A program made the position numbers and the translations under genes. Below the pieces are notes generated by a model. It was not told the origin of the DNA. It saw only the letters and a program-made list of their open reading frames with translations, and ran no database searches. A stretch of DNA of 64,000 nucleotides from an uncultured archaeon (lineage in GTDB: Archaea; Nanobdellota; Nanobdellia; Woesearchaeales; UBA9642), in contig CAVZPN010000024.1 in NCBI GenBank assembly GCA_963777125.1, forward strand, positions 6,596 through 70,595, written 5' to 3'. Below, piece by piece: positions 31,929-64,000 of this stretch; within the stretch, counting starts at the first letter, position 1, and each line of letters begins with the position of its first letter.

Positions 31929-31988
31929 AGTAATTACCTATTAAATTTTAATCGAATATAGTTTAATTAAGTATAATTATGAATAATA

Positions 31989-47578: not shown

Positions 47579-47625
47579 AATTCTCTAGTAATGAGGTGTA
47601 AGCCTAAGGTGAGGCTAAAGTAAAT

Positions 47626-49182
47626 ATGGGAACAGATAAAGCCGATAAAGATACTGAGAATTCTAAAGAAACTAATAAAGTAGCTAACGCTGGTAAAAAA
47701 ACTGCTGATGCAATAAACGCAGCTGGCGACGCTACATTAAGAAGTTTACGTAATGCTGGAAAAGCAATTGGAGGAAGTGGCGATTCATCATCTAGTTCTA
47801 AATCAAGTAGCGGATCTAATGGTGCAATCGCAATATTATTTGTAATTTCATTATTTCTTCACATTCTTGATTCTATTACTAAATTTGATAGACCAGGATT
47901 TATGTTATTTTATTATATTGGTCTAATAATATTTGCTTTTTTCTTTATTTTTAATATGAAACTTAACCAAGAGGGTGAAAAACAATTATTAGTAGTTATT
48001 TTCATATCTTATTTATTGCCTTTTGCAATAAAATATTTACCAGATAACAGATGGATACTTGCAATTTCAGGAATACTATTTTTAATTCCACTATTACCAC
48101 TATATATTGGACTACAGGCACCTCAAGATTCATTTTTATATAAATTTACAAAATGGTATATTGTCTTTTGGATAATCATACTAGCATTTTATCTTGTAGC
48201 AACATTTGCACCGACACAAGTAAGTACAGCACAACTTAAAGGAAATGTATGGACAGGAGCATCATATGTTTTGGGAAATACTGGAAAAACAATAAGTACT
48301 GTTACAACATCAGCAAATAATGCTCTAGCACGTGCTATTGCGCAAGCAACTGGAGAACCATATGATGGTCAAGAAGAAAGCAGAGTTGGAATTTATGTTG
48401 AAAATGTTAAAGCACTAGAATCAGGATATAATACTAACTCGGATGTTTTTGTTGAAGCTAAAATTAAAGCAATAAATCTAAAAGAACCAGTTAGAGTTAC
48501 AACAATATGTTATATTCCTGCAGTTCGTCAAGGAATTACAAATCCAGCTATCTTACCTGAAGTTAGTGCAGATTATGAAAATATTATTGATTGTGAACTA
48601 GGAAAATTAACTGCAGGAAATCATGAAGTAAAAGTACGTGCAATATTCGAGTTTAAAAGTACATCAGATATTGAATACACTTTTGTTAGCACTAATATTA
48701 AAACTGATCAATATACTAAATTAAATATTGATCCTACAACAATTGCAACATATACAGGTGGACCAGTAGCTGTTGGTTTACCATCCATAAAACAACCATT
48801 ACGAATAGAATTAGATCCTGATAAAACTGATGCAATGACTTATCCATTTGGAGTTAGCTTACAAAATAAATGGCCGCAAGGAAAAATTATGAAAGGATTA
48901 CAGTATAAATTAAATACTCCAAAAGAAGTAAAATTAGTTGAATGTAGTAGAACACCTACTGAAGTAAAAGAACCTGATGTTGATGGAAGAAACATATACA
49001 TATTTAATATTGATACTACCAATGCTCAAGATGTATTTGATGCAGTTAGATGTAGAATGCAAATAAGTGACGCGAAAGGATTATTAGGTAATGATCTAAA
49101 AAGCGTAAAAACATTTGCTGCAGAAGCAACATACGAGTACTCAGTTGAAAGCTCTGCAAGTATTAATATTATTAAAAGTTAG
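47626..49182 (+). CDS. polytopic membrane protein whose extracellular C-terminal domain belongs to the locus-specific paralog family
   Basis: Ser-rich N-terminus and approximately 6 TM helices. Ectodomain has the family N-terminal block (VGIYVEN...NTNSDVFVEAKIKAINLKEPV) and a GGPVAVGLPSIKQP block. Confidence 0.5.
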   Translation: MGTDKADKDTENSKETNKVANAGKKTADAINAAGDATLRSLRNAGKAIGGSGDSSSSSKSSSGSNGAIAILFVISLFLHILDSITKFDRPGFMLFYYIGLIIFAFFFIFNMKLNQEGEKQLLVVIFISYLLPFAIKYLPDNRWILAISGILFLIPLLPLYIGLQAPQDSFLYKFTKWYIVFWIIILAFYLVATFAPTQVSTAQLKGNVWTGASYVLGNTGKTISTVTTSANNALARAIAQATGEPYDGQEESRVGIYVENVKALESGYNTNSDVFVEAKIKAINLKEPVRVTTICYIPAVRQGITNPAILPEVSADYENIIDCELGKLTAGNHEVKVRAIFEFKSTSDIEYTFVSTNIKTDQYTKLNIDPTTIATYTGGPVAVGLPSIKQPLRIELDPDKTDAMTYPFGVSLQNKWPQGKIMKGLQYKLNTPKEVKLVECSRTPTEVKEPDVDGRNIYIFNIDTTNAQDVFDAVRCRMQISDAKGLLGNDLKSVKTFAAEATYEYSVESSASINIIKS

Positions 49183-49195
49183 AATAATTTAACCA

Positions 49196-50671
49196 TTGAA
49201 AGGAACAGTTATGAAAATAAGTATTAAAAAAAATAATAGCGTATTAATGAGTATATTTATATTGCTTACAGTAATATTTTTAACAGGATGTCAGGGTAGT
49301 GGTACTACGGAAAAATATCGTATTGGAACTGAAGGATTAAACTTAGAATTTGCATCATCTAATGTTAAAAGTGTATACGAAAACGAAAACTTCGGAACAT
49401 CAATAATTATCAAAAATATTGGTAGTTATGATATTTTAGATCAGAGTAATCCCGCAATATTAAAAGTTAGTTTTGATGATTATAGATTAAAATTTACTAA
49501 TTCTAAAGAAAATGTTAAAGAACAACAAATGTTAATTAATGGTAAAAGCAAATATTATCCTAAAGGAGATGAAATAAACTCAGAATACTATTTTGAATCA
49601 TTAAAACTCACTGATTTGAGAGAAAAATCAACTACTGAAATTAATTATAACTTATGTTATCCATATAATACTGAAATAACCACAGTTACATGTATTGATA
49701 CAAAACTTGCTAATAAAGATCAAACTGCAGCAGCATGTGCAAGTGAAACATATAGCGGATCTCAAGGTCAAGGAGCACCAATTGTTATAACTAAAATCGT
49801 ACCAGAAATCATGTTGCAAACAGAATATGTACGTCCACAATTTAAAATATATATTGAAAATAAGGGACCTGGATATGTTAATAACGCAAATAGTTGCAAT
49901 GTTGCAGATATTAATGATAGATCATCTTCAGGAAGAGTTAACGTATACGCTACTCTTTCAGGAACTCCTTTAGAATGTGGTCCTGATAATTCAGCATCAC
50001 TAAAATTAGTTGATTCTGAATCATTTATTAGATGCTATCTTCCAAATAAAGAAAAAGGATATTCACGATTAGAAAAAAATTATTTAACTCCATTAACAGT
50101 TAGTATTGATTATACCTATACTGTAATTACTAAACAAGAAATAGAAATTAAAAGAGATGACACAATAGAACGTGTTGTAACAAAAGACTGTGATTCATAT
50201 CAAATATTAAATGAAAATAAAACATGTGTTGATAAATGCTTATATTGTACCACTCATCCAAATGAAGATGTATGTAAAGTAAATTTACCTTTTGCAGAAT
50301 TTGAATTTAAAGAAGGTTTTTCATGTAGTTGTACTCTTGATCAATGTAATAGCAGAAATAAAACAGGAAATTGTATTAAAGGATATTGCCCTGGTAGTTT
50401 GTATTGCTGTAATACTCCTGTTGTTTGTGATAAATATCAAATAGAATTTAAGGGAAAATGTATCAATAAATGCGATTACTGCAGAGATAACTGGACTACA
50501 AACCCTAATGATCCTATTTGTCTCTCTAAATATGATTTTACTAACGCAAAATGTGATTCAATTACTGCGACAACATGTGATTCATTAGCAAAAAATAATT
50601 CCTGCATAAAAGGATTTTGTGGAGGAACAGATTCAAATAAATATTGTGTAAATACCTTTCCACAAGTATAG
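49196..50671 (+). CDS. lipobox-containing (LTGC) surface protein, paralog family member with Cys-rich C-terminal repeats
   Basis: Signal peptide ending LTGCQGSG. Family N-terminal block (GTEGLNLEFASSNVKSVYENENFGTSIIIKNIG). GSQGQGAPIVITKI. Repeated CIKG(Y/F)C(P/G)G Cys motifs. Confidence 0.55.
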   Translation: MKGTVMKISIKKNNSVLMSIFILLTVIFLTGCQGSGTTEKYRIGTEGLNLEFASSNVKSVYENENFGTSIIIKNIGSYDILDQSNPAILKVSFDDYRLKFTNSKENVKEQQMLINGKSKYYPKGDEINSEYYFESLKLTDLREKSTTEINYNLCYPYNTEITTVTCIDTKLANKDQTAAACASETYSGSQGQGAPIVITKIVPEIMLQTEYVRPQFKIYIENKGPGYVNNANSCNVADINDRSSSGRVNVYATLSGTPLECGPDNSASLKLVDSESFIRCYLPNKEKGYSRLEKNYLTPLTVSIDYTYTVITKQEIEIKRDDTIERVVTKDCDSYQILNENKTCVDKCLYCTTHPNEDVCKVNLPFAEFEFKEGFSCSCTLDQCNSRNKTGNCIKGYCPGSLYCCNTPVVCDKYQIEFKGKCINKCDYCRDNWTTNPNDPICLSKYDFTNAKCDSITATTCDSLAKNNSCIKGFCGGTDSNKYCVNTFPQV

Positions 50672-50744
50672 ATTAAAAAAGCAGAATATATTATACTTAA
50701 AAAAAACATAATCTTTATATATTATACACACAGGAGTTAATAAA

Positions 50745-52046
50745 ATGGTATTCAAACTAAACAATAAAATATTCTTAATAAGCACCTTAGTAATTGTTTT
50801 AATTTTAATTACTGGATGCGGAAGCACTACAAGTAATGTTCAAAAAAAATATTACACAGGATATAACAGTTTAGAAATGAATTTTTTAAGCGATAGTCCA
50901 CCATCAATATTTTATTATGACAGTGAAGCTCATGATAGAGGGGACTATGCTGCAAATACTATACCAATACTTGTTCAAATACAAAATAAAGGTTCATCTG
51001 ACAGTTATGGTGCATTATTTATACATGGATTTGATCCAAATATAGTTGCTATTCAAGGATATACTTCAGGATTTCCAGGATATAATGGTCCAATTAGAGG
51101 AGCTAGTTCTTTTGGCGGATGGTACGGTAACAATAATAATTATGCAATTAACGCATTAAATGTTCCTATAGGTACAAATAGCTATAGTTTAAATCTTCAA
51201 AAAGTCAATGGCCAAACAGGAATATCTTTTTCATCATTTGGATCTCGTTCACAATTATTCGGATCACTCGGATTCTCTAAGACATCACAAGTAGGAACTG
51301 GCTATACTGGAATAAATGTTGGTGTAGTACAAAATCGTGTTGGCTCAGTATTAAATCCTATAACTCGAGGAATGTTTAATCAATATGGTTGGAATGGTTG
51401 GTTAAAAGAACTTGAATTAGAGGGTAGAAATTCTGAAAATCCTGCAGGCGGAATGGATGTTATAGAATTCCCTGCAACAATATTAACACTTCCTCCATCA
51501 CTAGAAGAATTTAGACAAAGAGTAATGGTTACATCATGTTTTGATTACGCAACACATTCATCAACAATGGTATGTATTGATCCAGAACCATACTCTAATG
51601 TTAAAAAATCTTGTTTAATAAATACTGTAAGCGGAGGCGCAGGTCAAGGAGCTCCTGTTGCGGTTACAAGTATTGAACAAAGACCTGGCAAGGGCAGAAC
51701 TACATTTATTATAAATATTAGACACAATAAACAAGGAACATACGATGAATTATATGATTACTTTAATTTATACAAATGTGATCCAGCATCTGGCGCAACT
51801 GTAAAAACAAATGATAAAAACATTGTATATGTTGGATATGTGTACTTATCTCAATATGATATAACAATGGATTGTATGCCTGATCAAATGATTAGACTTG
51901 ATGATTCGGGTTCAGGTCAGATAACATGTTCAATAACTTTCCCAGAAGGAATGGCAAGTAGCGCATATCAAGCACCGCTTGAAGTAGAATTATGGTATGG
52001 TTATTCGAAAACAATATACAAAGATATGATTATTAGAAGAATATAA
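50745..52046 (+). CDS. lipobox-containing (ITGC) surface protein, paralog family member
   Basis: Signal peptide ending ITGCGSTT. Family N-terminal block (TGYNSLEMNFLSDSPPS...IPILVQIQNKG) and GGAGQGAPVAVTSIEQ. Confidence 0.55.
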   Translation: MVFKLNNKIFLISTLVIVLILITGCGSTTSNVQKKYYTGYNSLEMNFLSDSPPSIFYYDSEAHDRGDYAANTIPILVQIQNKGSSDSYGALFIHGFDPNIVAIQGYTSGFPGYNGPIRGASSFGGWYGNNNNYAINALNVPIGTNSYSLNLQKVNGQTGISFSSFGSRSQLFGSLGFSKTSQVGTGYTGINVGVVQNRVGSVLNPITRGMFNQYGWNGWLKELELEGRNSENPAGGMDVIEFPATILTLPPSLEEFRQRVMVTSCFDYATHSSTMVCIDPEPYSNVKKSCLINTVSGGAGQGAPVAVTSIEQRPGKGRTTFIINIRHNKQGTYDELYDYFNLYKCDPASGATVKTNDKNIVYVGYVYLSQYDITMDCMPDQMIRLDDSGSGQITCSITFPEGMASSAYQAPLEVELWYGYSKTIYKDMIIRRI

Positions 52047-52104
52047 ATTAGTATAATAATAGTATAAACAAATATAATAATTAAATAAACCTAAAGGTGA
52101 TAAA

Positions 52105-53088
52105 ATGAATAAAGGCATAGTATTGGTAATGATTTTGGCTATAAGTTTGTTTTTAACTGGTTGCGGTAATACGGGCACAACAACCGGTAAAACATTTATT
52201 GGTGGAACAGAAGGATTAAAAACAAGTTTTCTTTCAGGAAATCCTCCAGCTGTAACAACAGACGGCGGAACTACACCATTTAGTATCGGCATAAAAATGG
52301 AAAATATGGGAGAAAGTAGTATTAAATCTAGCGACGGATATGTAGAAATTTGGGGAGCAGATGCTTCAACATATAGTTCTAAATATCCTGACTTTAAAAA
52401 AACATTTTCACAAGAAGCAACTTTTGGAGAAGAATTAAGTGGTGCTAAAATGAATTATGGTAACCAACTACACGGCGGAACCAGCACTCTTACATTTGAT
52501 GACTTAAAATATGTTCCTATAATCACTGGTGATAATCGTGAACAATTAATTAGAGCAAATGTTTGTTACAAATACTCAACACAAGCAACAGCACAAATTT
52601 GTGTAAAAAATAATATAGAACAAGCACTTAGTGGAAAAGAAATATGTACTGTTGAAGAAGAGAAAAATCCTCAAAATAGCGGCGCACCAATACATATTAC
52701 ATCATTAAAAGAATTCTATGGGGGTAATGGAAAAATAGGAATAACATTAACAATTGCTCATGTAGGAAATGGAGATGCATTTTTCAAAGATGATCAAATA
52801 AAATGCGTTGATAGCTTAAGCAACGGCGATAAAGGAAAAGTCAGAATAAAATTCAAAGACATACAATTAGGTGGAAAGAGTATTCCTGTAGTATGCCCTG
52901 GCGTTAGCGAAGATGGATATGTTAGATTGTATAGCGAAGGTGCAGGAAAAGAATCAACTAATGTTCAATGTACAATCGATGTTTCTGGCAATAAAAATGT
53001 TGTAGAGGTACCAATAGAAGCAGAATTAAGCTACGTATACTTACAACACATAGAAACTGGCTTAACAATACGACATGTAGTTCAATAA
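52105..53088 (+). CDS. lipobox-containing (LTGC) surface protein, paralog family member
   Basis: Signal peptide ending LTGCGNTG. Family N-terminal block (GGTEGLKTSFLSGNPPAV...FSIGIKMENMG) and NSGAPIHITSLKE. Confidence 0.55.
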   Translation: MNKGIVLVMILAISLFLTGCGNTGTTTGKTFIGGTEGLKTSFLSGNPPAVTTDGGTTPFSIGIKMENMGESSIKSSDGYVEIWGADASTYSSKYPDFKKTFSQEATFGEELSGAKMNYGNQLHGGTSTLTFDDLKYVPIITGDNREQLIRANVCYKYSTQATAQICVKNNIEQALSGKEICTVEEEKNPQNSGAPIHITSLKEFYGGNGKIGITLTIAHVGNGDAFFKDDQIKCVDSLSNGDKGKVRIKFKDIQLGGKSIPVVCPGVSEDGYVRLYSEGAGKESTNVQCTIDVSGNKNVVEVPIEAELSYVYLQHIETGLTIRHVVQ

Positions 53089-53354: not shown

Positions 53355-54575
53355 TTAACTTGTTACAAACATTCCGCCCATAAGTGTTGCAAACATCATA
53401 GAAGCCACATAATAAATTATTAATGATATAATTATAAATATTGGAATAAGCTTAGTACCATCTTTAACACTGCCTTTTCTAATAACACTAATTATAGCTG
53501 CAGAAAAGAACGAAGATATAATTAATACTAACATCGAAAATCTTCTAAAATCGTTAACATTAATGCTGTCATTAGAAAAATTAAAACTAAAAGAACCCAT
53601 ACCAGAGCTGTCTAATTGCAAACTACCAAAAATTTGCTGTATGATAATTAATAATTGAGTACTTAATGCAAATAATAATGGTGCCGCAAGTACTGAAGCT
53701 ACACCAATAAATATTGCATAAGTTGTAACACTAGCACCGATTTCTTTACGCATTAATTGCGTTTCTTTAATATTACTAGATAATTTATTCAATAATACTG
53801 CCATTTCTCCGCCGCTTCTAATACCCTCTACGATTAAATTTATTGTCTCTCGCAACATTCTTGATTCATACTTAGTTCCAAGACGCAATAATGCCGTTTC
53901 TAAATCATCTCCAACAATCGTAGATTTAGCAACATTTTCCATTTCTACAGCAAGTATTCCAAATTTTGATCGTATAGCATACCATAATGCTCTATCAACA
54001 GTCATTCCTGCACTAATATTAGCAGAAGCTAATTGTAAAAAATCAGGTAATGATTCTTCAATTTGACGTACACGATTATACATTTGTACATCCAAATATA
54101 AAAATATTGCAAGTATTGATAAAAAATATATTGCTAAAAATACTAATATCCAAATTACTAGTAAAAACAAGAATAATACATCAAGAGATTTATGATTAAC
54201 AATTACAAAAGATAAGATAATAAAAGATAATATTGCAGATATTATTGCGACAATTGTTAATATCTTTTTATTAATGTCTCTCGGACTAATCTCAAGACCC
54301 ATCCTAGTAACAAAATCTGCAAATAATCCTATTAACTTTTTTTTAGGCTTTGAAACTCTATCAAATTTACTGCTATTTTTTTGTAAGGCAACTCTCTTTA
54401 AATCTTTTTCAAAAGTGGCTTGATCAAAGTGTGCTTTTAATAAATTATTAAACTTGTCTCTAAAATTATTTAATGAGTTGAATTCTTTAAACTGTACAGA
54501 ACTATCTTGACTAGATATTAACTCTTCTTTAAAGTTTTTCAAACTTCTCTTTTTGTGTTCTATTGTATCGCTCAT
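53355..54575 (-). CDS. type II secretion system F-domain membrane protein (TadC/FlaJ-like)
   Basis: T2SSF-like segment (LPDFLQLASANISAGMTVDRALWYAIRSKFGILAVEMENVAKS...LETAL) flanked by TM helices. Confidence 0.65.
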   Translation of the reverse strand: MSDTIEHKKRSLKNFKEELISSQDSSVQFKEFNSLNNFRDKFNNLLKAHFDQATFEKDLKRVALQKNSSKFDRVSKPKKKLIGLFADFVTRMGLEISPRDINKKILTIVAIISAILSFIILSFVIVNHKSLDVLFLFLLVIWILVFLAIYFLSILAIFLYLDVQMYNRVRQIEESLPDFLQLASANISAGMTVDRALWYAIRSKFGILAVEMENVAKSTIVGDDLETALLRLGTKYESRMLRETINLIVEGIRSGGEMAVLLNKLSSNIKETQLMRKEIGASVTTYAIFIGVASVLAAPLLFALSTQLLIIIQQIFGSLQLDSSGMGSFSFNFSNDSINVNDFRRFSMLVLIISSFFSAAIISVIRKGSVKDGTKLIPIFIIISLIIYYVASMMFATLMGGMFVTS

Positions 54576-54633
54576 TTTTCTATTATTAATATTATTTATA
54601 CAATCATAATATAACTACATTATAAACATCATT

Positions 54634-55425
54634 TTATGTACTTATGGATGGTCTTGATGACTTTGCAACTGATAAAAACATAAATTGTACAAATCCAATC
54701 ATCACTGCAAGTACAACGAGTATAGTCATACTAATCTTTAAACCCATAAATGAAGCAGCAATTACTAGCATAGTTATTCCGAGTGATGGTACAATTATGG
54801 AAATAGTCATATAAAACATTGCTAAAGGACTAAGTTTTTTACCATATTCTGAAACAGCAATAGCTTGTTCTCGAACAATTTGTTCAGCCACTGAATTTAA
54901 TGCTCCTGCAACTTCAGTTCCTGTTTGCAAAGAATTCATTACTTGCCATAATAATCTTCGTAAATTTGGTGAAGGCGAAGTATTTAATGTATCACTTATG
55001 GCATCTTCCATTGTGGTCCCAAAATAAACTTTATTCAATATTTCACCAAAATAATATCCTATATATTCATAATTTTTTTCCATATCCTCAAATATTTTAT
55101 GTATTGGAACACCAGATTCTATTCCAATAATTAAAAATCGTGCAGCAAAAATTATTTCTTCATCTATTTTCTTTTTTATCTTTTCTATTTTTACATCTAC
55201 ATATTTTATAAAATACATAAATAAAAAAGGAAGACTAAATGGAATAATTAATATTGCCAAAAATGACGAAGTAAAAAAAAAGAACATAAAAAATAAACCT
55301 ATAGAAATCATCACTATTGTTGCAACTGTAGATTTAATATACTCTTCAGGCTCAGCAAGTATACCTGCTTGTCTAAGTTTTAGTCTTAACTCAGGCATAC
55401 GTTTGGAAAGGTAGGAATATAGCAT
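54634..55425 (-). CDS. type II secretion system F-domain membrane protein (TadB/FlaJ N-half-like)
   Basis: T2SSF-like segment (GVPIHKIFEDMEKNYEYIGYYFGEILNKVYFGTTMEDAISDTL) plus 3 TM helices. A 58 nt gap with stops in all frames separates it from the next gene. Confidence 0.6.
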   Translation of the reverse strand: MLYSYLSKRMPELRLKLRQAGILAEPEEYIKSTVATIVMISIGLFFMFFFFTSSFLAILIIPFSLPFLFMYFIKYVDVKIEKIKKKIDEEIIFAARFLIIGIESGVPIHKIFEDMEKNYEYIGYYFGEILNKVYFGTTMEDAISDTLNTSPSPNLRRLLWQVMNSLQTGTEVAGALNSVAEQIVREQAIAVSEYGKKLSPLAMFYMTISIIVPSLGITMLVIAASFMGLKISMTILVVLAVMIGFVQFMFLSVAKSSRPSIST

Positions 55426-55541: not shown

Positions 55542-57839
55542 TTATTTAGTTTTTTTACTTAGTTTATTCGATTTAGATGAGTCTAATTTTGCTTTAGTTT
55601 TAGAAGACCCTTTTGATTTGTTTTCAGTTGATTTTGTATTGGGCTTTTTAGAGGAACTAGATTTATTCAAATTATCATCTGGAGTAGTAGAATTAACAGC
55701 AGCATTAACTGCGCTTTTTGAATCGGAAGCATTAACAGCAGCAGCACTTGAATCTACAGTTGGAATTTTTAATGCAGAATTAGATTCTGGAACTACAGGT
55801 AATTCTATTTTTAGTTGTGATGCTAGAGGGAAATCTTTATTTGAATTAACATATTTCATAAGATTTGGCTTTGCAGTATAATATTCTGCAACAATTCTTC
55901 CTACACCATCAACATCATCAATATTTTTCGAAACTAAATATTTTAACACCTTCACCTTATCATCTAATTCTTTATTTATTTCAGCCGTAGTCATACCAGT
56001 AAACAATGCAATATTATCAAATAATGATTTAGATTTACTTATTTGCACAAGAACATCTTTATTAATATCATACTGCATTATTACATTAGCTTCACCAGTA
56101 GATAATATTTCAGCAATTTGGAACGTTCTTCTTTTACCGCTTCTTCTATTTCTAAATTGTACTATTATTAAGGATATTGCTGGCAACATAATTTTTGGAA
56201 CGTCAAGCGGAGCATTTGTCAATCTCTCAACTGTCTCTTTAGCGCTATTTGCGTGAAATGTTGCATATACTGAGTGTCCAGTGTGTATTGCTTCGAATAA
56301 TGTTTCTGTTTCTCTCTTTCTTCTAACTTCTCCTACAAGAATTCTATCTGGTCTCATTCTTAAACTATTAACGAGTAAATCTCCCATATTTATTTCTCCT
56401 TTTCCTTCAGCATTTGGAAGAGTAGTATTTAATGGAACCCAATGTAAAAACTTTGGAAGAACAATTTCTCTTGTATCTTCAATACTTAAAATTCTTTGAT
56501 TTGGCGGGAAAAAATTAGCGAAAACATTTAATGCTGAAGTCTTACCTGAAGCTGTTCCTCCTGCAATTAAAGCAGATAATTCAAATTGTATTGCTGTCCA
56601 TATTAATGCTGCAGCTTCAGCTGAAATTGTTGCTGTTCTAATAAATTTAGTTATAGTCCATGGATCCTTAGAAAACTTTCTAATAGTCATAGTATTACCA
56701 TTTGTTGAAACAGGACTTAAAGTAGCATTTACTCTATCTCCAGTTCCTAAATTTGCATCTAAAAGAGGAGTTAGAACAGTAATTTGTCTTCCGACTCTTC
56801 TTCCAATAATACTTGCATAATGTCTTATTTGCTCTTCACTTTTCAGATATACATTTGTTCTAAGCCAATTGTATTTTTTATGATATACCCATGCTGGCTC
56901 AGATGATTGATTTATTACTACTTCTTCAAGTAATTCATCATTCATTAATAATTCTAAATTACCAAGACCTAAACTATGCATTTTCAAATAAGATCTTAAA
57001 AATCCTACTGTATCAATATCGCTGTCAGGAAAATATTTACCGATAAGTATATCTATTAATTGATTAAATTTATCTTCCACCATATCTGTTTTTTTAACAT
57101 TACCTATTTCTTCTGCACCCAAACTTACCCTTCTTATCAATTCTAAACGTACTTTTTCAAGAATCATTTCGGTAGTTTTACTTATTGCGGAAATTTGTAA
57201 ATTATATATAGGAACAAATTCACCAATCTTTTTAACAACAGTCACAGTTATGGGAATACCTTCTGATTTAAATTCATAAGTATCGAGTAATTTATCCTCA
57301 TTACTCTCAATATCTTCAGAATCATTAGAAACTTTAGATAACTTTTTTGTATCTACTAAAATATTTTTAGCGGATTTAGCAGACTTATTACTTTTAGAAA
57401 GTTTAACTAAATTATCAACAGAATTAGTACTCTCACCAGCAGACTTAGTTGCAGTTAAATCTATAGACTTATCTATAATTTTGGCAGATTTATTTACAGC
57501 AGAATCTTTTGATAGATCCTCTTTTTGTATATCCTTAATTATGGATGATTCTTCTAACTCTTTTTTATATTTTTTAGAATTTTCTAAAGTCTTATCAAAA
57601 AGAGAATGAATTGCGTTAGAAACAACATTAACGGGATTTTTATCATTAGAAATAATTTCTGTTTTAGAAGAATTTACAGATTTAACATCATCAGCAGGCA
57701 TATTAAGAACATCTTTTTTAGAAGTAAGAGCAGTAACTGGCTCTTCTTTAGTATTCTTCTCTTTAGTAGCATGCTCTTTAACATGCGCTTTACTAGTTGA
57801 TGATTTTTTACTCATTATTTTCAATAGTCTGTTTCCCAC
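55542..57839 (-). CDS. FlaI/TadA/VirB11-family secretion ATPase with long K/S-rich N- and C-terminal low-complexity extensions
   Basis: Walker A GGTASGKTS, RPDRILVGEVR (Asp box region), ATFHANS His box. Approximately 200 aa N-terminal and 110 aa C-terminal K/S/N-rich tails. Confidence 0.85.
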   Translation of the reverse strand: MGNRLLKIMSKKSSTSKAHVKEHATKEKNTKEEPVTALTSKKDVLNMPADDVKSVNSSKTEIISNDKNPVNVVSNAIHSLFDKTLENSKKYKKELEESSIIKDIQKEDLSKDSAVNKSAKIIDKSIDLTATKSAGESTNSVDNLVKLSKSNKSAKSAKNILVDTKKLSKVSNDSEDIESNEDKLLDTYEFKSEGIPITVTVVKKIGEFVPIYNLQISAISKTTEMILEKVRLELIRRVSLGAEEIGNVKKTDMVEDKFNQLIDILIGKYFPDSDIDTVGFLRSYLKMHSLGLGNLELLMNDELLEEVVINQSSEPAWVYHKKYNWLRTNVYLKSEEQIRHYASIIGRRVGRQITVLTPLLDANLGTGDRVNATLSPVSTNGNTMTIRKFSKDPWTITKFIRTATISAEAAALIWTAIQFELSALIAGGTASGKTSALNVFANFFPPNQRILSIEDTREIVLPKFLHWVPLNTTLPNAEGKGEINMGDLLVNSLRMRPDRILVGEVRRKRETETLFEAIHTGHSVYATFHANSAKETVERLTNAPLDVPKIMLPAISLIIVQFRNRRSGKRRTFQIAEILSTGEANVIMQYDINKDVLVQISKSKSLFDNIALFTGMTTAEINKELDDKVKVLKYLVSKNIDDVDGVGRIVAEYYTAKPNLMKYVNSNKDFPLASQLKIELPVVPESNSALKIPTVDSSAAAVNASDSKSAVNAAVNSTTPDDNLNKSSSSKKPNTKSTENKSKGSSKTKAKLDSSKSNKLSKKTK

Positions 57840-57990: not shown

Positions 57991-59151
57991 TTACTTAGTT
58001 TTTTTAAACATTGAAATTAATTGTGATATCTTTCCTTTAATAGACATCTTTTTATTCTCAAATTCTTTAATTTTTGATTCAATATCTTTTAATTCTGATT
58101 TAATATGCACACTTGAAGTTAATAGAGTAAATGAAATAACTTTTGCCTTTAAAGCTTCGAGTTCTTTTGCTAAAGATAACTTATCACTTTCAATTTCTGT
58201 AATTAATTTTTCAATAGTAATGTTTTTGGAAAAAAAGCCTTCAAAACCCTTATGTACTTTATCACTTAATGCTGAATGTGCATTAATACTTTCTTTTTGC
58301 GAACTTAATTCTTTCTCTATTTGTGCTTGAGTTTTAAAAATCTTATCTTCGTTTGATTTTAAAGCAAGTATTTTTTTTGTTAATAAACTACTTTTTTTAT
58401 CTGAAATTTCCTGATCTAAATTATCTAAAGAAAGTTTATATTTGAGAATAGTTTTATTAGCATCATCAAATTTATTTTTATAATCTAAGATAACTTTATC
58501 GATATTTTTCAAAGATTCTTTCAAAGAAGTAACTGTTCGTTCATAATCATTACGTAATTTTACTAATTCTTCAATTTTTTTACCATATTGATCAACATTA
58601 GTTCTTTCTTTTGCAATTACATTATGTAATTCATCATATTTTTGTGATTCTAATTTTAATTTGTCTTGCGCTTCTTTAACAAAAGAATCATAATCAATTC
58701 TCTGTTTATCAATATCTTTGCCTAAATTCTTTCTTAAAGAATCATATCTATCGAGTTCAGTTAATTGAGTTTTTACTAAATTAATTTCCTCTTTAATATT
58801 GCTTTGAATTTTTGCAAATTCCGCTCTAATAGTCTCAAAATCGCTAGTTTCTTCTTGTAATGCGCTTAATGCAACATCGATTTTTCTTGCTAAAGCATCT
58901 TTTTCTGATGTTACTTCTTTAATATTTGTTAATACGTCTTCTTTGCCTATTTTTCGTTCAGAAATAAATATTTTAGAAAGATGATACTCAAGACTTACAA
59001 GTCCTTCCTCTTCTAGAAATTCAGCCCATTCTTGCACAACATTCTTACCTACACCTAAAGTTTTTGCAGCTGAATCTAGATCTAAGCGCTTTTTTTCGGA
59101 TACAAGTTCAACTAACTTATCCACACCAGTTGTAATGCTTCTTCTCACCAT
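57991..59151 (-). CDS. coiled-coil protein with N-terminal winged-helix-like domain (pilus-locus associated)
   Basis: N-terminal LDLDSAAKTLGVGKNVVQEWAEFLEEEGLVSLEY is HTH-like. Followed by approximately 300 aa of heptad-rich sequence. Confidence 0.45.
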   Translation of the reverse strand: MVRRSITTGVDKLVELVSEKKRLDLDSAAKTLGVGKNVVQEWAEFLEEEGLVSLEYHLSKIFISERKIGKEDVLTNIKEVTSEKDALARKIDVALSALQEETSDFETIRAEFAKIQSNIKEEINLVKTQLTELDRYDSLRKNLGKDIDKQRIDYDSFVKEAQDKLKLESQKYDELHNVIAKERTNVDQYGKKIEELVKLRNDYERTVTSLKESLKNIDKVILDYKNKFDDANKTILKYKLSLDNLDQEISDKKSSLLTKKILALKSNEDKIFKTQAQIEKELSSQKESINAHSALSDKVHKGFEGFFSKNITIEKLITEIESDKLSLAKELEALKAKVISFTLLTSSVHIKSELKDIESKIKEFENKKMSIKGKISQLISMFKKTK

Positions 59152-59250: not shown

Positions 59251-60279
59251 TTAAGGACATGCTGTTTCATTTATATTATCTAAACCATAAAATGTTTTTC
59301 TATCTCTTGGCAATATTAAAGGATACAAAGGATTATGAGTTAAATTAATACATACTTTATTAACATTTAAATCGTTAAAATAAATATAATCTACCTTTAT
59401 TCGTTTAGGATATGATGTTAATTCGGGATTCAATAAAATCCTATCATCTACAATACTTTCTATACCGTAAGGATCTGAAGTAGTTTTTCCTTCAAAACGC
59501 ATAATAAAAGTAGGAGCATTACTAGATTCAATATAATACGAACTATTAATATGATTTTGTAAAGTCATAAGACTAATATCATTAAACAAAATACTAGAAT
59601 TAATAGTAGAATTTAATCTTCGGATAGTATTTGGAACTTTATTAAATGTATTTTTACTATATAAGGGATCTCTTAAATTATCAATAGGAACGGTTGTTAC
59701 GTATTCTTTATTAATATTCCATGATGCAGTATGTTTATTATCTATAAGAGTTATATTCAAAGCCATATATACATCAATATTCCATGGATCAGATTGCACT
59801 AAATTAATATTTGAAACATTAATGTTTAAATCCATACCAGTATTACTAGATATAGCATCTACTTTAGAAACATAATCATAAAAAGTCGAATTAGCCATTA
59901 TGGGCGAGTTAGTTCCATTTATTGTACCATAATAAAACGTTTCTCTAAAAGACTCATTAATATTTGTTAAATAAACCCCGCTCGTAGTTACATAATCCTC
60001 GAGAGCCAATAAAGTCCTAAACGCAGAGATATATGTTGCACGGTGAATATCATTATTTAAATTTTTAGTAAAATCATTCATTGATCTGATCCTTATTTGT
60101 TGTAATAATTCTTGATCTTGATATCTGTAATTACTAGCAGCAAAAAATATACTAAGTAAAATAGCAACCATAAGCGTTGTAACTAAAACATAAGTAAATC
60201 CTTTACGACTTTTTCTAGAAGTAATGATTAAATTAGATAGTATATTCTTTAAATTCTTAAGTAGCATAATCATTGCCAT
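59251..60279 (-). CDS. pilin-like protein with class III signal peptide
   Basis: N-terminus ...SRKSRKG|FTYVLVTTLMVAILLSIFFAA, a basic leader with G-F then a hydrophobic helix, like prepilins. Start overlaps the end of the giant upstream gene by 10 nt. Confidence 0.5.
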   Translation of the reverse strand: MAMIMLLKNLKNILSNLIITSRKSRKGFTYVLVTTLMVAILLSIFFAASNYRYQDQELLQQIRIRSMNDFTKNLNNDIHRATYISAFRTLLALEDYVTTSGVYLTNINESFRETFYYGTINGTNSPIMANSTFYDYVSKVDAISSNTGMDLNINVSNINLVQSDPWNIDVYMALNITLIDNKHTASWNINKEYVTTVPIDNLRDPLYSKNTFNKVPNTIRRLNSTINSSILFNDISLMTLQNHINSSYYIESSNAPTFIMRFEGKTTSDPYGIESIVDDRILLNPELTSYPKRIKVDYIYFNDLNVNKVCINLTHNPLYPLILPRDRKTFYGLDNINETACP

Positions 60280-63200
60280 ACCTCAAGATTCAATACAGAT
60301 GGTCCCCACATGTAAGGTAAACCTCCGACAGTTAAAACAACGACTTCTAAATCTTCGGCAGCTAATGAAACAATTATTTTACCGTTACTATCAATATCTA
60401 ATTGTCTAAAAATATTATATACCGCTAAATCATATGCATCATCAAAATCATAATCAGGATTAAATGTTTGTGAAGAATTAGTATAATTACATACTTTCGA
60501 ACCAGCATAATTTGAAGGAATAAATATAGTCGTATTATCATTATTCTCCGATTCAACTATCCATTTACAACCAACAACTTTAGGTAAAATCTCAGATCTT
60601 GCAATAGTACTTGGAATTAAAGCAGTATAAATAAAAGAATTATTTACAGAACAATTAGTATTAACTGAAGGATCATCACCAGTAGCCAATATTAATTGAT
60701 GAGTTCCTGAATTATTTAAATAACTAGGAGGTATTTGAATAATAAAAGGATCACCTAATCTAACATAATTGCTATTATATTTAGAAAGATTATATACTTC
60801 TACATCATCAATACTTAAATAATTAGTCCAATGTTGACCTGAGTAGGAAGTTATTTTTGCATCTATAATTCGCATACCTGAAGGCAAATTTATAGTTGGA
60901 CTACAATCATTAAATTTAGAACTTTCAAAAGTAATTTCGATTTCACCAGGAACAGGAGGAGATATTAAAGAAGTATAATTATAAGCAATATAACTATCAG
61001 GATATAGCGTTGATTCAGCAAATGCAGAACCAGAAAATATCATTGCCTGAGATTCGCGAGTAGAAAAACCAGAAACTATAGATGAAGCAATATCTTGGTA
61101 TATATCTGCGATGGCAGAAACATCTGTAGTAGTATAAAAATGAGTAGAATTATCACATGCTGCACTAAGATTTAATGTTTTAGTGCCATTAATACTTGAA
61201 GAAGTACCAAAAGCCACAGAATAAATACTTATATTACGACTATTATGTAAATAGCATGATAAATTGACAACCTGAGCAAAGGCAGTTTCATTACCATCTT
61301 CGCTTCCTCCTAAATCAGCAATAGTTGGACACATAACATTAAACACTCCAGTTGTAGTATTAGGACAACATGCTCTTCCAGAACAATCATTACAATAATT
61401 TAAACTTCCAACACCATCCCATGCGCGTACACAACTATTTGCATCACCATCACTCATAATTAATATTGCGCTCTGTCTTTCAGTCATATTTGCGCGTAAT
61501 TCCACATCAATAAATCCTGAAAGATTATCATTGTTTTTTAATTTTACAGCTAAAATATTATTTCCTTCAACAAAATTAGACATTGGAACAGAAACATTCC
61601 TATTCCAATAAGATCTAACATGATTAGTCGTATCATTATCAATTAAATTCCCATTTAAATATACTTCAGTATTATTGTCAGAAGCGACATATAGACGTGC
61701 ATCAGAAAATCTTGTAAGATTAGTCATTGAAAAAGTATTTCTATAATAAGTATTTCCAACATGATTTACAAATACTATCTGCACATTATCAAAATAAAAA
61801 ATACCTGATAAAGTAGCCTTATCACGACTAAGTTTCCCTCCAAAATCTAAATAATAACTGCCCGACTGAGTTAATATAGAACTTATATCTTGACTAAACG
61901 CTAAATCATCTGCGTTTGTATCAGGATCGTCGGTTGTCCAAACTTCGTAAGTTGAATCACTTGCCGTATGTCCGCTATCTTTTTGAGAACCTAGATAAGT
62001 AATATTTCCGGAAGTATTACTTATTCTTGCTTTAATCCAAACCTGATCAGCAGTTTTGTAACTTCCTGAATTTATCCACGAATAATCAAAAGATACAACA
62101 GCATAACCCCCATTTGAAATAATCGCAAGCATTTCATCAGTTACATTAAATTGAATACCATAAGAACCATCAGAGGTTTGTCTACTCGCAACACCACCAA
62201 TATTTATTCTTAATTGACCTCCAGATATTCCTGCAATAGTTACAGCAGTACTATTTCCACTATATGCACCTGTTTTATTATCCCAACCATCATTTCCACT
62301 AACATTTAATCCATAAGTGTTTGCAGTAGAATTTAATCTTCCTGAAGTAAAATCATTTGGTGACCCTAACACATCATTAACAGAAGCACTATAATATTCC
62401 CATAAATCTGCTGAAATATTATTTGAGTTAATAACTGCACCTAATCCAGACACTTTATATCCTATAGGAACATTTCCCTCTAACCAAGAAGAATCATCAT
62501 ATGAAATAATGTTCCAATTAGAATCAGGTAAATTAAATTGATGAGTAATATCGTATTTCCATAAATCTTTATGTAATTGAGGAGCTGAAAGATTAGATAA
62601 TAAATTATATGCATCAGTAATACCGCAAGAAATACAAGTAGAACCAGACGCTGAATAAAGATCTATTTCATCGCCTAATAAATTTTGATCATTAGTTAGA
62701 TTATACTTTCGTTTAGTATCATCAGCATAAGAAACTAAACCTATTCTATTTAAAGTAGTATTTAATAATACTTCATCAATAAAAATCTTATCAACACATC
62801 TAGCAACAGATATTCTACTTGTTGATAAACTATACAATGAAGGATCAGAGCAATCAAAAATATCATCACCATCATTATCACTATCAAACTCCCAATCCAT
62901 ACTACCACTTACATCTGTTGTTATAACTATGTCTCCAAATCCTTCACCATTACCAACTCTTATGGTTTGAAGAGTAATATTTTCAAACCCTATTCTTAGC
63001 GGAATTGTCGAACTATTAAAAGAAGAATAATCTATTATTGAAAAATTTGCATCAGTCAAATTCATTCTAACTTCACCATTAGAATAATTATCTAAAAATA
63101 CTGTTTTATTACCTAACGTCATAAAAAAAGTATTTTGTACAGTACTAGTATTTATCCTATAATGTAAATATATATTTAAACTATTTAATTCTCCAGGAAC

Positions 63201-64000
63201 GTATATTGAATCATAAAGGTTTACTGCACCAGCAATTCCTGGCAAATCATTAGTTTTATGAGTACTATAAGGATCATCTTGAAAATTATTTGTTTCATAA
63301 TCTATTTTTATATATCCTCCAGAGATATATGCTTTACTAAGATCTGTAAATGAAAAAGTAAAATTATTTTTGCCTTCAATTAAAGAAGCATTACAACCAG
63401 TTATTAACCAATAATCAGAAGTCATATTAATAGTAGATGCAGTAAATATGGAAACTCCTGTAGAACTATTACACGAAATATTGTTAATAGTTAAATGAAA
63501 TACTACACCCTCAGCGACATCTAATTCTAAAATCATTTGTAATACACGAATATTATTTAAATCAAAAGTTTTAGTGATATTACCCTGTCCGACAAACCCG
63601 CCAAAATAAGCATAGGATGAAGTTTTTTTATCACTTATTTTTCGTAAATAAGAAGTTCCTGACGAACCAAGTAATGGTTTTCCCTCTTCGATACCAGATA
63701 TCATTCTACTTGCAGAAATGGAATTTATTTTTAAAGCTAAATCTTGCAATAATATAGTGCTATTACCAATAGTAGTTTTAATACCATAATTATTAGGGAT
63801 AGAATTATTAATAACGTCTTCAAGCAATAATTGCGCTTTATCTTTCCTATTTGTCGCCCAATATATACCTATCTGCTCTAAAACAGTTTTATTAGTATCA
63901 GTAATATTTTGTGAATTTGTCTCATTAATAATAAAAGTGCTATTGAGCTCATTAATTCTTAATTCTGAAATTATAGATAAAATATCTTGTGATACAAAAG
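60270..64000 (-). CDS. giant extracellular vWA-domain protein (putative adhesin/tip protein), 5' end beyond window
   Basis: Frame is open from 60270 to 64000. I translated the 63828..64000 extension by hand and found no stop, so the protein is longer than 1,240 aa. MIDAS motif ITTDVSGSMDWE. Very many N-x-S/T sequons. Cys pairs. Confidence 0.6.
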   Translation of the reverse strand, partial: FVSQDILSIISELRINELNSTFIINETNSQNITDTNKTVLEQIGIYWATNRKDKAQLLLEDVINNSIPNNYGIKTTIGNSTILLQDLALKINSISASRMISGIEEGKPLLGSSGTSYLRKISDKKTSSYAYFGGFVGQGNITKTFDLNNIRVLQMILELDVAEGVVFHLTINNISCNSSTGVSIFTASTINMTSDYWLITGCNASLIEGKNNFTFSFTDLSKAYISGGYIKIDYETNNFQDDPYSTHKTNDLPGIAGAVNLYDSIYVPGELNSLNIYLHYRINTSTVQNTFFMTLGNKTVFLDNYSNGEVRMNLTDANFSIIDYSSFNSSTIPLRIGFENITLQTIRVGNGEGFGDIVITTDVSGSMDWEFDSDNDGDDIFDCSDPSLYSLSTSRISVARCVDKIFIDEVLLNTTLNRIGLVSYADDTKRKYNLTNDQNLLGDEIDLYSASGSTCISCGITDAYNLLSNLSAPQLHKDLWKYDITHQFNLPDSNWNIISYDDSSWLEGNVPIGYKVSGLGAVINSNNISADLWEYYSASVNDVLGSPNDFTSGRLNSTANTYGLNVSGNDGWDNKTGAYSGNSTAVTIAGISGGQLRINIGGVASRQTSDGSYGIQFNVTDEMLAIISNGGYAVVSFDYSWINSGSYKTADQVWIKARISNTSGNITYLGSQKDSGHTASDSTYEVWTTDDPDTNADDLAFSQDISSILTQSGSYYLDFGGKLSRDKATLSGIFYFDNVQIVFVNHVGNTYYRNTFSMTNLTRFSDARLYVASDNNTEVYLNGNLIDNDTTNHVRSYWNRNVSVPMSNFVEGNNILAVKLKNNDNLSGFIDVELRANMTERQSAILIMSDGDANSCVRAWDGVGSLNYCNDCSGRACCPNTTTGVFNVMCPTIADLGGSEDGNETAFAQVVNLSCYLHNSRNISIYSVAFGTSSSINGTKTLNLSAACDNSTHFYTTTDVSAIADIYQDIASSIVSGFSTRESQAMIFSGSAFAESTLYPDSYIAYNYTSLISPPVPGEIEITFESSKFNDCSPTINLPSGMRIIDAKITSYSGQHWTNYLSIDDVEVYNLSKYNSNYVRLGDPFIIQIPPSYLNNSGTHQLILATGDDPSVNTNCSVNNSFIYTALIPSTIARSEILPKVVGCKWIVESENNDNTTIFIPSNYAGSKVCNYTNSSQTFNPDYDFDDAYDLAVYNIFRQLDIDSNGKIIVSLAAEDLEVVVLTVGGLPYMWGPSVLNLEVWQ

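What the first reader, a model, noticed from the sequence alone, without database searches (positions are those of the whole stretch)
60270..64000. Giant vWA (MIDAS DxSGSM) protein densely studded with N-glycosylation sequons, translationally linked to a pilin-like gene
The ORF runs off the window at more than 1,240 codons, which I verified by hand past 63827. It contains a metal-ion-dependent adhesion site motif (ITTDVSGSMDWE) and dozens of N-x-S/T sequons. Its stop overlaps the start of the class III-signal pilin-like gene 59251..60279 by 10 nt. A vWA protein co-encoded with pilins recalls bacterial tip adhesins such as PilY1/PilC, and this would be an archaeal analogue.
Basis: partly seen in the sequence, partly recalled or inferred. 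Interest (0 to 1): 0.65.

Follow-up and report, generated by a model that had tools for sequence, protein, structure and literature searches.

The report
Archaeal pilus adhesin with vWA domain
This is a real 1,287-residue surface protein of a tiny symbiotic (DPANN/Woesearchaeota) archaeon that joins a pilin-type signal to a metal-dependent adhesion (vWA) domain carrying lectin-like inserts, and it is probably the sticky tip subunit of the cell's type IV pilus.

Summary
The minus-strand frame 60270..64000 is open for 1,242 codons. An identical public protein shows that the complete gene has 1,287 codons, so the window lacks only the first 45. The MIDAS residues (DxSGS, T, D) are invariant in 57 homologues. 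An AlphaFold model (pLDDT 84) shows the canonical vWA strand/helix order. N-x-S/T sequons number 51 against 24±4 expected, and 20 sequon positions are conserved.

Three findings are new. First, the missing N-terminus is itself an archaeal class III (prepilin) signal, [KR][KR][GA] followed by xxFTxDA and about 20 hydrophobic residues, conserved in 88 homologues. The protein is therefore a modular pilin, not a PilY1-type non-pilin. Second, the vWA domain is split in its α3–β4 loop by a 370-residue nested pair of jelly-roll (lectin/CBM-like) modules. About half of the relatives lack this insert, and others have it duplicated or extended. Third, the gene sits in a conserved operon found in at least 89 Woesearchaeota/Nanoarchaeota/Altiarchaeota genomes. 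The order is three small pilins, the vWA pilin, an overlapping 340-aa pilin-like partner, a coiled-coil protein, a FlaI/TadA-type ATPase and a split FlaJ/TadC platform.

The most likely role is a glycosylated tip adhesin of a DPANN type IV pilus. It is functionally analogous to S. sanguinis PilB, TadG/CpaL and PilY1, but it is not a sequence-level member of those families. I found no published description. Novelty: new variant of a known kind. Interest: moderate.

The parts
60270..64000 (-). 3' 96.5% of the vWA modular-pilin gene (codons 46-1287 plus the TGA stop). The first 45 codons, which include the class III signal, lie beyond the window edge.
   Evidence: Open frame. 100% identical to the full-length P0001, 1,287 aa.
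63801..63998 (-). Helical region that follows the N-terminal hydrophobic helix (P0001 residues 46-111).
   Evidence: AF2 models. Coordinates checked.
62985..63785 (-). N-terminal beta-sandwich region (P0001 residues 117-383), family-specific, with 13 sequons.
   Evidence: AF2 secondary structure, strands 30-296 in model numbering. No PDB sequence relative.
62583..62936 (-). vWA domain, first half (beta1-alpha1-beta2-beta3-alpha2-alpha3).
   Evidence: Sub-threshold Pfam VWA/VWA_2 match.
62901..62915 (-). MIDAS motif DVSGS (DxSxS).
   Evidence: D and the first S are invariant and the second S is nearly invariant in 57 homologues. Coordinates.
62637..62639 (-). MIDAS threonine (GSTCISCG).
   Evidence: Invariant T412/C413/C416 in model numbering. 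Coordinates.
61473..62582 (-). 370-residue insertion in the alpha3-beta4 loop of the vWA domain. An outer galactose-binding-like jelly roll is interrupted by an inner jelly-roll module.
   Evidence: Absent from the 908-aa homologue P0075. All-beta in the model. Foldseek hits to GH35/GH2 beta-galactosidase jelly rolls, reelin, BcsB and CBM22. The inner module is duplicated in P0020 and MAM/BetaGal_ABD2 matches occur in P0024.
61065..61475 (-). vWA domain, second half (beta4, Cys-rich arm, alpha4-beta5-alpha5-beta6-alpha6).
   Evidence: (match to BatA-like 4rck).
61449..61451 (-). MIDAS aspartate (ILIMSDGDAN).
   Evidence: Invariant M806/D808/G809. Coordinates.
60273..61055 (-). C-terminal 261-residue beta-rich domain. 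It is the family signature and ends in PYxWGP...VWQ.
   Evidence: No PDB sequence relative. Used to retrieve 89 genomes.
60280..60284 (-). Shine-Dalgarno-like GAGGT inside the end of the vWA gene, 6 nt upstream of the partner's ATG at 60273.
   Evidence: Read directly from the sequence.
59251..60273 (-). 340-aa pilin-like partner with a class III-like signal (RKG|FTYVLV...) and no acidic residue near the N-terminus. It overlaps the vWA stop (ATGA).
   Evidence: A homologue lies directly downstream in 60 of 72 related loci. Family N-termini.
57991..59151 (-). 386-aa coiled-coil protein of the operon.
   Evidence: SMC/Rad50-like coiled-coil matches only. Conserved in 49 related loci.
55542..57839 (-). 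FlaI/TadA-type secretion ATPase (T2SSE) with Lys/Ser-rich N- and C-terminal extensions.
   Evidence: PF00437 at 1.8e-30. FlaI model at 4.6e-74.
53355..55425 (-). Two T2SSF (FlaJ/TadC/UpsF-like) membrane platform genes, 54634-55425 and 53355-54575.
   Evidence: PF00482 at 1e-13 and 2e-11. ArlJ/UpsF matches.

Best explanation
The gene encodes a modular minor pilin of an archaeal (DPANN, Woesearchaeota-type) type IV pilus.

The proposed mechanism is as follows. An N-terminal class III signal is cut by a prepilin peptidase (inferred). This leaves a hydrophobic helix with an invariant Asp, which lets the protein enter the filament (inferred). The protein probably enters as part of a priming/tip complex with the three small minor pilins encoded just upstream and the overlapping 340-aa pilin-like partner (inferred).

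The extracellular part is heavily N-glycosylated (inferred from enriched, conserved sequons). It presents a vWA domain with a complete MIDAS, flanked by Cys-rich arms, which would bind a ligand carboxylate through a divalent cation. A nested pair of jelly-roll (lectin/CBM-like) modules grafted into the alpha3-beta4 loop would add carbohydrate binding.

In an episymbiotic DPANN cell the likely target is the host cell surface, or another surface (inferred).

Shown here: the ORF, the fold, the MIDAS, the signal motif, the insertion, the operon and its conservation. Inferred: cleavage, tip location, glycosylation and ligand.
For: 1. ORF. It is real and complete in the source contig.

2. vWA fold. 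The model has pLDDT 84.1 and the canonical order b1-a1-b2-b3-a2-a3-[insert]-b4-a4-b5-a5-b6-a6. Foldseek matches the Mfa5 vWF domain with probability 1.00. The insert-free homologue P0075 matches ITIH1, Mfa5, PilB of S. sanguinis (8e-11), SpaC, RrgA, LapA and ANTXR, and Pfam VWA at 5.6e-10.

3. MIDAS. D, S, T and D are invariant, and the second Ser of DxSGS is nearly invariant (at least 90%), in 57 homologues.

4. N-terminus. Of 88 homologues, [KR] occupies position -8 in 82 and position -7 in 85, G/A/S occupies -6 in 88, an Asp is invariant, and about 20 hydrophobic residues follow. The co-encoded 173-aa pilin family has the same K[GA]|QxWxxD pattern, and the other small pilins have K[AG]|QxxxE.

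5. Operon with a FlaI/TadA-type ATPase and split FlaJ/TadC. Across species-level genomes the partner lies directly downstream in 60 of 72, the ATPase in 44 of 57, and small pilins upstream in 47 of 57.

6. Extracellular signature. Sequons number 51 against 23.9 +/- 4.2, 20 sequon columns are kept in at least 50% of homologues, and the protein has 18 Cys, several of them conserved.

7. Precedents. vWA modular pilins are thought to sit at pilus tips in bacteria (PMC8179133; bioRxiv 10.1101/2025.02.12.637803).
Against: The region after the N-terminal helix is modelled as extra helices plus beta-sandwiches, not a canonical pilin head.

The acidic residue is Asp at +6, not Glu at +5.

No prepilin peptidase or AglB oligosaccharyltransferase turned up in the window: none of the 15 proteins put through Pfam matched either, and I judged the remaining ORFs only by eye from their translations.

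No archaeal pilus tip protein has been shown experimentally, and nothing here shows incorporation into a filament.

Pfam VWA is below threshold for the window protein itself, at 18.6 against 23.8 bits. This is explained by the split domain.

pTM is 0.48, so the relative domain arrangement is uncertain.
Confidence: 0.62

Rival explanations
1. Membrane-anchored accessory or adhesin. The N-terminal helix is an uncleaved signal anchor, and the vWA ectodomain stays at the cell surface. It would act as a base or anchor of the pilus machinery, as was once proposed for TadG, or as a stand-alone BatA/BatB-like surface vWA protein.
For: There is a single N-terminal TM helix followed by non-pilin-like domains. 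PDB sequence and fold matches to the BatA/BatB-type vWA proteins 4rck and 3ibs, which have N-terminal TM anchors. Makarova et al. cite the TadG anchor hypothesis (PMC4858521).
Against: An invariant Asp inside the hydrophobic segment and a near-universal [KR][KR][GA] just before it are hallmarks of prepilins, not of plain anchors. The same motif occurs in a bona fide small pilin of the operon. The protein co-varies with a set of minor pilins.
Confidence: 0.17
2. Bindosome-like assembly. As with Sulfolobus sugar-binding proteins that carry class III signals and depend on the Bas system (my own knowledge of Zolghadr et al. 2007), the vWA protein would be a cargo displayed on a short pseudopilus or surface lattice built by this ATPase, platform and small pilins, rather than sitting at the tip of a long pilus.
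For: The protein has a class III signal on a large ligand-binding protein. The operon contains three small pilin-like genes. The ATPase also matches the BasE model at 4.4e-43.
Against: The ATPase scores much better against FlaI (4.6e-74) and TadA. A highly conserved stand-alone major-pilin gene (KK[AG]QAAMEFLMTYGWAILVV) lies next to the operon, which argues for a real filament.
Confidence: 0.12
3. Cytoplasmic vWA regulator of pilus or archaellum expression, of the ArnB type with a MoxR partner.
For: vWA proteins linked to archaeal T4P loci have been described as regulators (PMC4858521). ArnB (8s05) appears among the fold hits at 6e-7.
Against: The protein has an N-terminal signal/TM helix, a 2-fold sequon excess with conserved positions, conserved cysteines and lectin-like inserts. 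No FHA or MoxR partner is present in the operon.
Confidence: 0.01

Closest known systems
PilB of Streptococcus sanguinis (bimodular type IV minor pilin with a vWA module; PDB 7b7p; PMC8179133)
   Same: It has a class III signal and N-terminal helix, followed by a vWA module with a functional MIDAS flanked by 'arms'. It is encoded with other minor pilins and is proposed to be a tip adhesin. It is among the best fold matches of the core homologue (E 8e-11).
   Different: It is bacterial, with an IPR012902 N-methylation motif and Glu5. It has a canonical pilin head and is about 460 aa long. It has no N- or C-terminal beta-sandwich domains and no jelly-roll insertion, and N-glycosylation is not reported for it. 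There is no sequence similarity outside the vWA fold.
TadG / CpaL of bacterial Tad (type IVc) pili (bioRxiv 10.1101/2025.02.12.637803)
   Same: It is a large pilin-like protein with a MIDAS vWA domain split by a beta-rich insertion. It is encoded with two small pseudopilins and a TadA-type ATPase. Tad pili are thought to derive from archaeal pili.
   Different: The CpaL insert lies between the DxTxS loop and the MIDAS Thr (residues 204-384). Here the insert lies after the MIDAS Thr, in the alpha3-beta4 loop. Pfam gives no TadE/Tad N-terminal match. The flanking domains are different.
PilY1 / PilC of type IVa pili
   Same: It is a pilus-associated adhesin that often has an N-terminal vWA domain. 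It works with a set of minor pilins at the tip.
   Different: PilY1 is not a pilin, and it is defined by a C-terminal beta-propeller (PF05567/IPR008707). Here there is a prepilin-type N-terminus and a 261-aa non-propeller C-terminal domain.
vWA tip adhesins of other pilus types: Mfa5 (type V), SpaC, RrgA, EbpA (sortase pili)
   Same: The layout is a vWA/MIDAS domain embedded among beta-sandwich domains and displayed at a pilus tip. These are top Foldseek hits (6tnj, 6m48, 2ww8), and Mfa5 is the best PDB sequence hit apart from 4rck.
   Different: Their assembly systems are unrelated (sortase, or type V strand exchange), and they have no class III signal.

Membership tests
vWA domain superfamily with MIDAS | Doubly wound alpha/beta fold, b1-a1-b2-b3-a2-a3-b4-a4-b5-a5-b6-a6 | tested here: met
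   Secondary-structure order in the AF2 model. Foldseek match to 6tnj at probability 1.00 for the window protein. Many vWA hits with TM up to 0.8 for the core homologue.
vWA domain superfamily with MIDAS | MIDAS residues DxSxS ... T ... D | tested here: met
   D320, S322, S324, T412 and D808 in model numbering are invariant or nearly invariant in 57 sequences. Window coordinates.
vWA domain superfamily with MIDAS | Pfam PF00092/PF13519 score above the gathering threshold | tested here: not met
   The window protein scores 18.6 and 16.8 bits against cut-offs of 23.8 and 27, because the domain is split by 370 residues. The insert-free homologue P0075 passes at 40.1 and 39.5 bits.
Archaeal type IV pilin-like proteins (class III signal) | Basic n-region, [KR][GAS] cleavage motif, then about 20 hydrophobic residues | tested here: met
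   P0001 N-terminus is MKTIKNNKA|FFYTMDALLASVLLLSALLLIY. Position-specific counts over 88 homologues are. This segment lies just outside the window.
Archaeal type IV pilin-like proteins (class III signal) | Acidic residue at +5 of the mature protein | tested here: inconclusive
   There is an invariant Asp at +6, counting from the G/A, rather than Glu at +5. The same holds for the co-encoded 173-aa pilin family, which has the canonical G|Q.
Archaeal type IV pilin-like proteins (class III signal) | Genomic association with a T4P ATPase and a FlaJ/TadC platform | tested here: met
Archaeal type IV pilin-like proteins (class III signal) | Cleavage by a PibD/FlaK/EppA peptidase and incorporation into a filament | not testable with these tools
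   No peptidase A24 gene was found among the window ORFs scanned. Biochemistry or imaging is required.
PilY1/PilC | C-terminal PilC/PilY1 beta-propeller (PF05567) | tested here: not met
   No Pfam match at E<=1. The C-terminal 261 residues are modelled as a compact beta-rich domain with one helix.
TadG/CpaL | TadE/TadG-like N-terminal pilin module (PF07811/PF13400) | tested here: not met
   No Pfam or NCBIfam match.
TadG/CpaL | vWA domain with MIDAS interrupted by a beta-rich insert | tested here: met
   Present, but at a different loop (compared with the CpaL description read).
Bacterial modular pilins (IPR012902 plus an extra module) | Bacterial N-terminal methylation motif G|F/MxxxE | tested here: not met
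   The motif here is archaeal, KK[GA]|xxFTxD.

The most novel reading that the evidence does not exclude
This family is the host-recognition organelle tip of Woesearchaeota/Nanoarchaeota/Altiarchaeota pili. It would be an archaeal vWA pilin whose specificity is retuned by gain, loss, duplication and swapping of lectin-like cassettes at two hot spots in the vWA domain. It would also represent the archaeal lineage from which the bacterial Tad TadG/CpaL vWA pilins descend. That would make a vWA tip pilin an ancestral feature of the Epd/Tad branch of type IV filaments.
Probability: 0.15. Interest if true: 0.75.

Novelty: new variant of a known kind. Interest (0 to 1): 0.55.

Why it matters
DPANN archaea are largely uncultured ultrasmall cells thought to live attached to hosts, and how they recognise and hold a host is mostly unknown. 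This locus provides a concrete, widely conserved candidate: a pilus subunit that combines a metal-dependent protein-binding site with optional lectin-like modules. The family comprises 746 clusters at 50% identity and is found in at least 89 species-level genomes.

It also extends the 'modular pilin' principle to Archaea. That principle was established only for bacteria (PilB, CpaL). Neither the 2016 census of archaeal type IV pili nor the papers I could search describe a vWA-bearing pilin in Archaea.

The family's length classes would let host-range hypotheses be tested by comparative genomics and binding assays.

Tried and rejected
- Exact look-up of the 342-aa partner found nothing, because public gene calls start it two codons later at 340 aa.
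- Profile searches of the PDB with the C-terminal domain, the insertion and the N-terminal beta region gave nothing significant. The best E-values were 0.39, 0.39 and 0.41. These domains can therefore be described only by fold.
- Pfam on 11 insertion sequences gave only a weak PA14 match in 2 members.
- The idea that the insert is hypervariable was rejected. Mean pairwise identity is 0.40 for the insert against 0.42-0.46 for the other domains. The variation is in presence, absence and copy number, not in sequence drift.
- BLASTP among the operon proteins and against the vWA protein showed no hidden paralogy.
- The window has no tRNA or Rfam element.
- No prepilin peptidase was found among the membrane ORFs scanned.

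Full report
**1. Observation**

On the minus strand, the frame ending at TGA 60272-60270 is open for 1,242 codons up to the window edge. The window is about 71% A+T. A random frame would therefore hit a stop about every 12 codons (my arithmetic), so this is a real gene. The ORF listing shows it only from an internal TTG at 63827.

A database protein, P0001, is 100% identical over the window part and is 1,287 aa long. Its contig was retrieved as L001. The window therefore lacks only the first 45 codons, and there is no upstream stop or frameshift.

The motif ITTDVSGSMDWE is at 62889-62924.

The window part has 51 N-x-S/T sequons. 2,000 composition-preserving shuffles give 23.9 +/- 4.2 with a maximum of 39. 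The excess is therefore not just a consequence of an Asn/Ser/Thr-rich, low-GC proteome. Twenty sequon columns are kept in at least half of 57 homologues, and five are kept in more than 89%.

At the junction, ATG codons of the downstream gene lie at 60279, 60273 and 60267. ATG 60273 is preceded by GAGGT with a 6-nt spacer and is the start used by the public gene call. It gives an ATGA 4-nt overlap rather than 10 nt.

**2. Organism and locus**

The neighbouring genes are archaeal. I recognised split PheRS alpha/beta, a Hef-type helicase-nuclease and TrmB-like regulators by eye from the translations. Pfam confirmed eRF1 and RFC on L001. The closest named homologues are from Candidatus Woesearchaeota.

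Downstream on the same strand lie four further gene products:
- a 340-aa protein with a class III-like N-terminus;
- a 386-aa coiled-coil protein;
- a T2SSE ATPase that scores best against FlaI (4.6e-74) and then TadA;
- two T2SSF/FlaJ-like membrane proteins.

Upstream, beyond the window in L001, are three small genes on the same strand (147/148, 139 and 173/176 aa by gene call/ORF) and a divergently oriented 162-aa gene. All four have class III signals: RA|QVSMEYL, KA|QIAVEFL, NG|QVWTIDFL and KG|QAAMEFLMTYGWAIVV.

**3. The protein is itself pilin-like**

The missing N-terminus is MKTIKNNKA|FFYTMDALLASVLLLSALLLIY. I anchored 88 homologues on the conserved Asp. [KR] occupies position -8 in 82 and position -7 in 85. 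G/A/S occupies -6 in all 88. The segment then reads xxF-T-x-D(invariant)-A-x-x-A followed by about 20 hydrophobic residues.

This is the archaeal prepilin pattern, except that the acidic residue is Asp at +6. The co-encoded 173-aa pilin family shares exactly this variant (K[GA]|QxWxxD). The 147-, 139- and 162-aa families have the canonical Glu at +5, and the 340-aa family has no acidic residue. An invariant charge inside a membrane helix is expected for a pilin and would be odd for a plain anchor.

**4. Fold**

I aligned 57 full-length homologues (A1) and predicted residues 88-1287 of the protein. Mean pLDDT is 84.1 and pTM is 0.48.

In model numbering, the secondary-structure order is:
- b 313-320, carrying DVSGS at 320-324;
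- an arm, then a 353-369, b 376-382, b 386-393, a 396-403, T412 and a 414-426;
- a 370-residue all-beta insertion;
- b 800-807, ending in D808;
- a Cys-rich arm, then a 864-879, b 881-888, a 894-905, b 912-915 and a 918-936.

This is the canonical vWA topology. D320, S322, T412 and D808 are invariant, and S324 is nearly invariant.

Foldseek of the whole model is dominated by jelly-roll hits: GH35/GH2 beta-galactosidase domains, reelin, BcsB, CBM22 and PNGase. It also finds the Mfa5 vWF domain at probability 1.00.

The insert-free homologue P0075 (908 aa) was modelled at pLDDT 84.5 and shows an N-terminal helix at residues 11-38. Its hits are ITIH1, Mfa5, the S. sanguinis minor pilin PilB (8e-11), SpaC, RrgA, LapA, BatB and ANTXR. 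P0075 passes Pfam VWA at 5.6e-10. The window protein is sub-threshold in Pfam only because the domain is split.

**5. The insertion**

P0001 residues 1-512 and 967-1287 align with P0075 residues 1-531 and 592-908. The extra segment is window 61473-62582.

It is nested. An outer module begins (LWKY...W...DDSSW...G..P.GY), is interrupted by an inner module (LWE...NDFTSG.LN.T.NT.G...DGWD...FDN.Q), and then resumes (YYR..F...L...SD...VYLNG...).

Three observations support the nesting:
- P0020 (1,468 aa) has two tandem copies of the inner module between the same outer halves.
- P0024 (1,614 aa) adds a MAM-like segment.
- The outer C-terminal part of P0024 passes Pfam BetaGal_ABD2 at 28.8 bits against a cut-off of 23.

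By the rules of the vWA fold, the alpha3-beta4 loop lies on the face opposite the MIDAS, and the two Cys-rich arms flank the MIDAS. This is an inference, because I could not inspect coordinates.

**6. Family and synteny**

A profile of the short forms finds 746 clusters at 50% identity with E<=1e-30 among 1.84 billion representatives. Lengths run from 830 to 2,031 aa. Matches split at two recurrent profile positions, about 398-448 and about 528.

A scan of species-representative genomes with the family-specific C-terminal domain confirmed 89 genomes. Their labels are Woesearchaeota, Nanoarchaeota/Nanoarchaeia and Altiarchaeota, plus generic labels and one probable mis-binned 'Alphaproteobacteria' MAG.

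Among the loci with enough flank:
- the 340-aa partner lies directly downstream in 60 of 72;
- the ATPase lies downstream in 44 of 57;
- small pilins lie upstream in 47 of 57.

Of 66 complete ORFs, 37 are 800-1,000 aa and 19 are 1,200-1,400 aa.

Long and short forms interleave. P0032 (1,293 aa) and P0075 (908 aa) share 71.8% identity in the C-terminal domain, whereas the window protein is only about 39% identical to P0032. The cassette has therefore been gained or lost repeatedly.

Where present, the insert is not hypervariable. Its mean pairwise identity is 0.40, against 0.42-0.46 for the other domains.

**7. Interpretation**

The best-supported reading is a modular, N-glycosylated minor pilin that presents a MIDAS vWA adhesion site plus lectin-like modules on a DPANN type IV pilus. 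It is most likely at the tip and part of a priming complex with the operon's other minor pilins.

Shown here: the gene, the fold, the MIDAS, the signal motif, the insertion, and the operon and its conservation. Inferred: signal cleavage, filament incorporation, tip position, glycosylation, and the ligand (host surface proteins or glycans).

The rivals are an uncleaved membrane-anchored ectoprotein (the TadG-as-anchor or BatA/B-like idea), a bindosome-like display system, and an ArnB-type cytoplasmic regulator. The regulator reading is excluded by the signal, the sequons and the cysteines.

**8. Comparison with known systems**

Functionally the protein works like S. sanguinis PilB (PMC8179133) and Tad CpaL/TadG. 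CpaL/TadG is a pilin-like module plus a vWA domain split by a beta-rich insert, although at a different loop. More loosely, it works like PilY1/PilC.

Membership tests fail for three groups:
- PilY1, because there is no propeller;
- TadG, because there is no TadE-like N-terminal match;
- bacterial modular pilins, because there is no IPR012902-type motif.

The N-terminal beta region and the C-terminal domain have no relatives detectable by sequence in the PDB.

The 2016 census of archaeal type IV pili predates DPANN sampling. It mentions vWA proteins only as cytoplasmic regulators, and TadG only as a bacterial example (PMC4858521). Five further literature searches found no description of this family. 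Database names are 'hypothetical protein' or 'VWA domain-containing protein'.

**9. Verdict**

Novelty is 'new variant of a known kind': a vWA modular pilin, here in Archaea, with its own flanking domains and an insertion cassette. Interest is moderate (0.55). It is unsurprising in principle, but it is a concrete, widespread and testable candidate for DPANN host attachment.

Noticed in passing
window 45893-53088 (+): A divergently oriented cluster of five predicted surface proteins (561, 518, 491, 433 and 327 aa). Three have lipobox-like LTGC signals, and the 561-aa one starts RRG|QSAGNAAAFVAILTVLIIVY, which is class III-like. Together they are strongly depleted in N-x-S/T sequons (6 observed against about 26 expected from composition), the opposite of the vWA pilin. 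The 433- and 327-aa proteins are paralogues (E 1e-8). None has a Pfam family above threshold. Genes of similar size sit beside the pilus operon in L003.
   Followed up: partly
window 53355-55425 (-): The FlaJ/TadC-type platform is encoded as two separate T2SSF genes (263 and 406 aa). The same split occurs in L003 (262 and 405 aa).
   Followed up: partly
window 55542-57839 (-): The pilus ATPase carries long Lys/Ser/Asn-rich low-complexity N-terminal (about 190 aa) and C-terminal (about 90 aa) extensions. It is 765 aa, against 643 aa for its counterpart in L003.
   Followed up: no
L004 398-8776: In an Altiarchaeota MAG the operon holds two vWA paralogues (1,261 and 906 aa), each followed by a 620-650-aa gene, upstream of the T2SSE ATPase.
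   Followed up: no
window 31422-32510 (-): Two tandem paralogous small genes (168 and 173 aa) begin with a twin-arginine-like signal, MTTRRDFLKKS..., which seems unusual for a DPANN archaeon.
   Followed up: no
window 11755-13695 (-): Two adjacent paralogous secreted-looking proteins (287 and 292 aa) share a conserved C-terminal half (…YSILTYY.F.A..C.G…W.G…DPT.Y..FVPLENR.KDI). Function unknown.
   Followed up: no
L058 (DASPMU010000053.1): One homologue of the family-specific C-terminal domain lies on a contig labelled Alphaproteobacteria bacterium. This is most likely a binning error, but transfer was not checked.
   Followed up: no
window 60270-63827: the ORF listing reports this ORF from an internal TTG even though the frame stays open to the window edge, so the listed 1,185 aa understates it.
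   Followed up: yes
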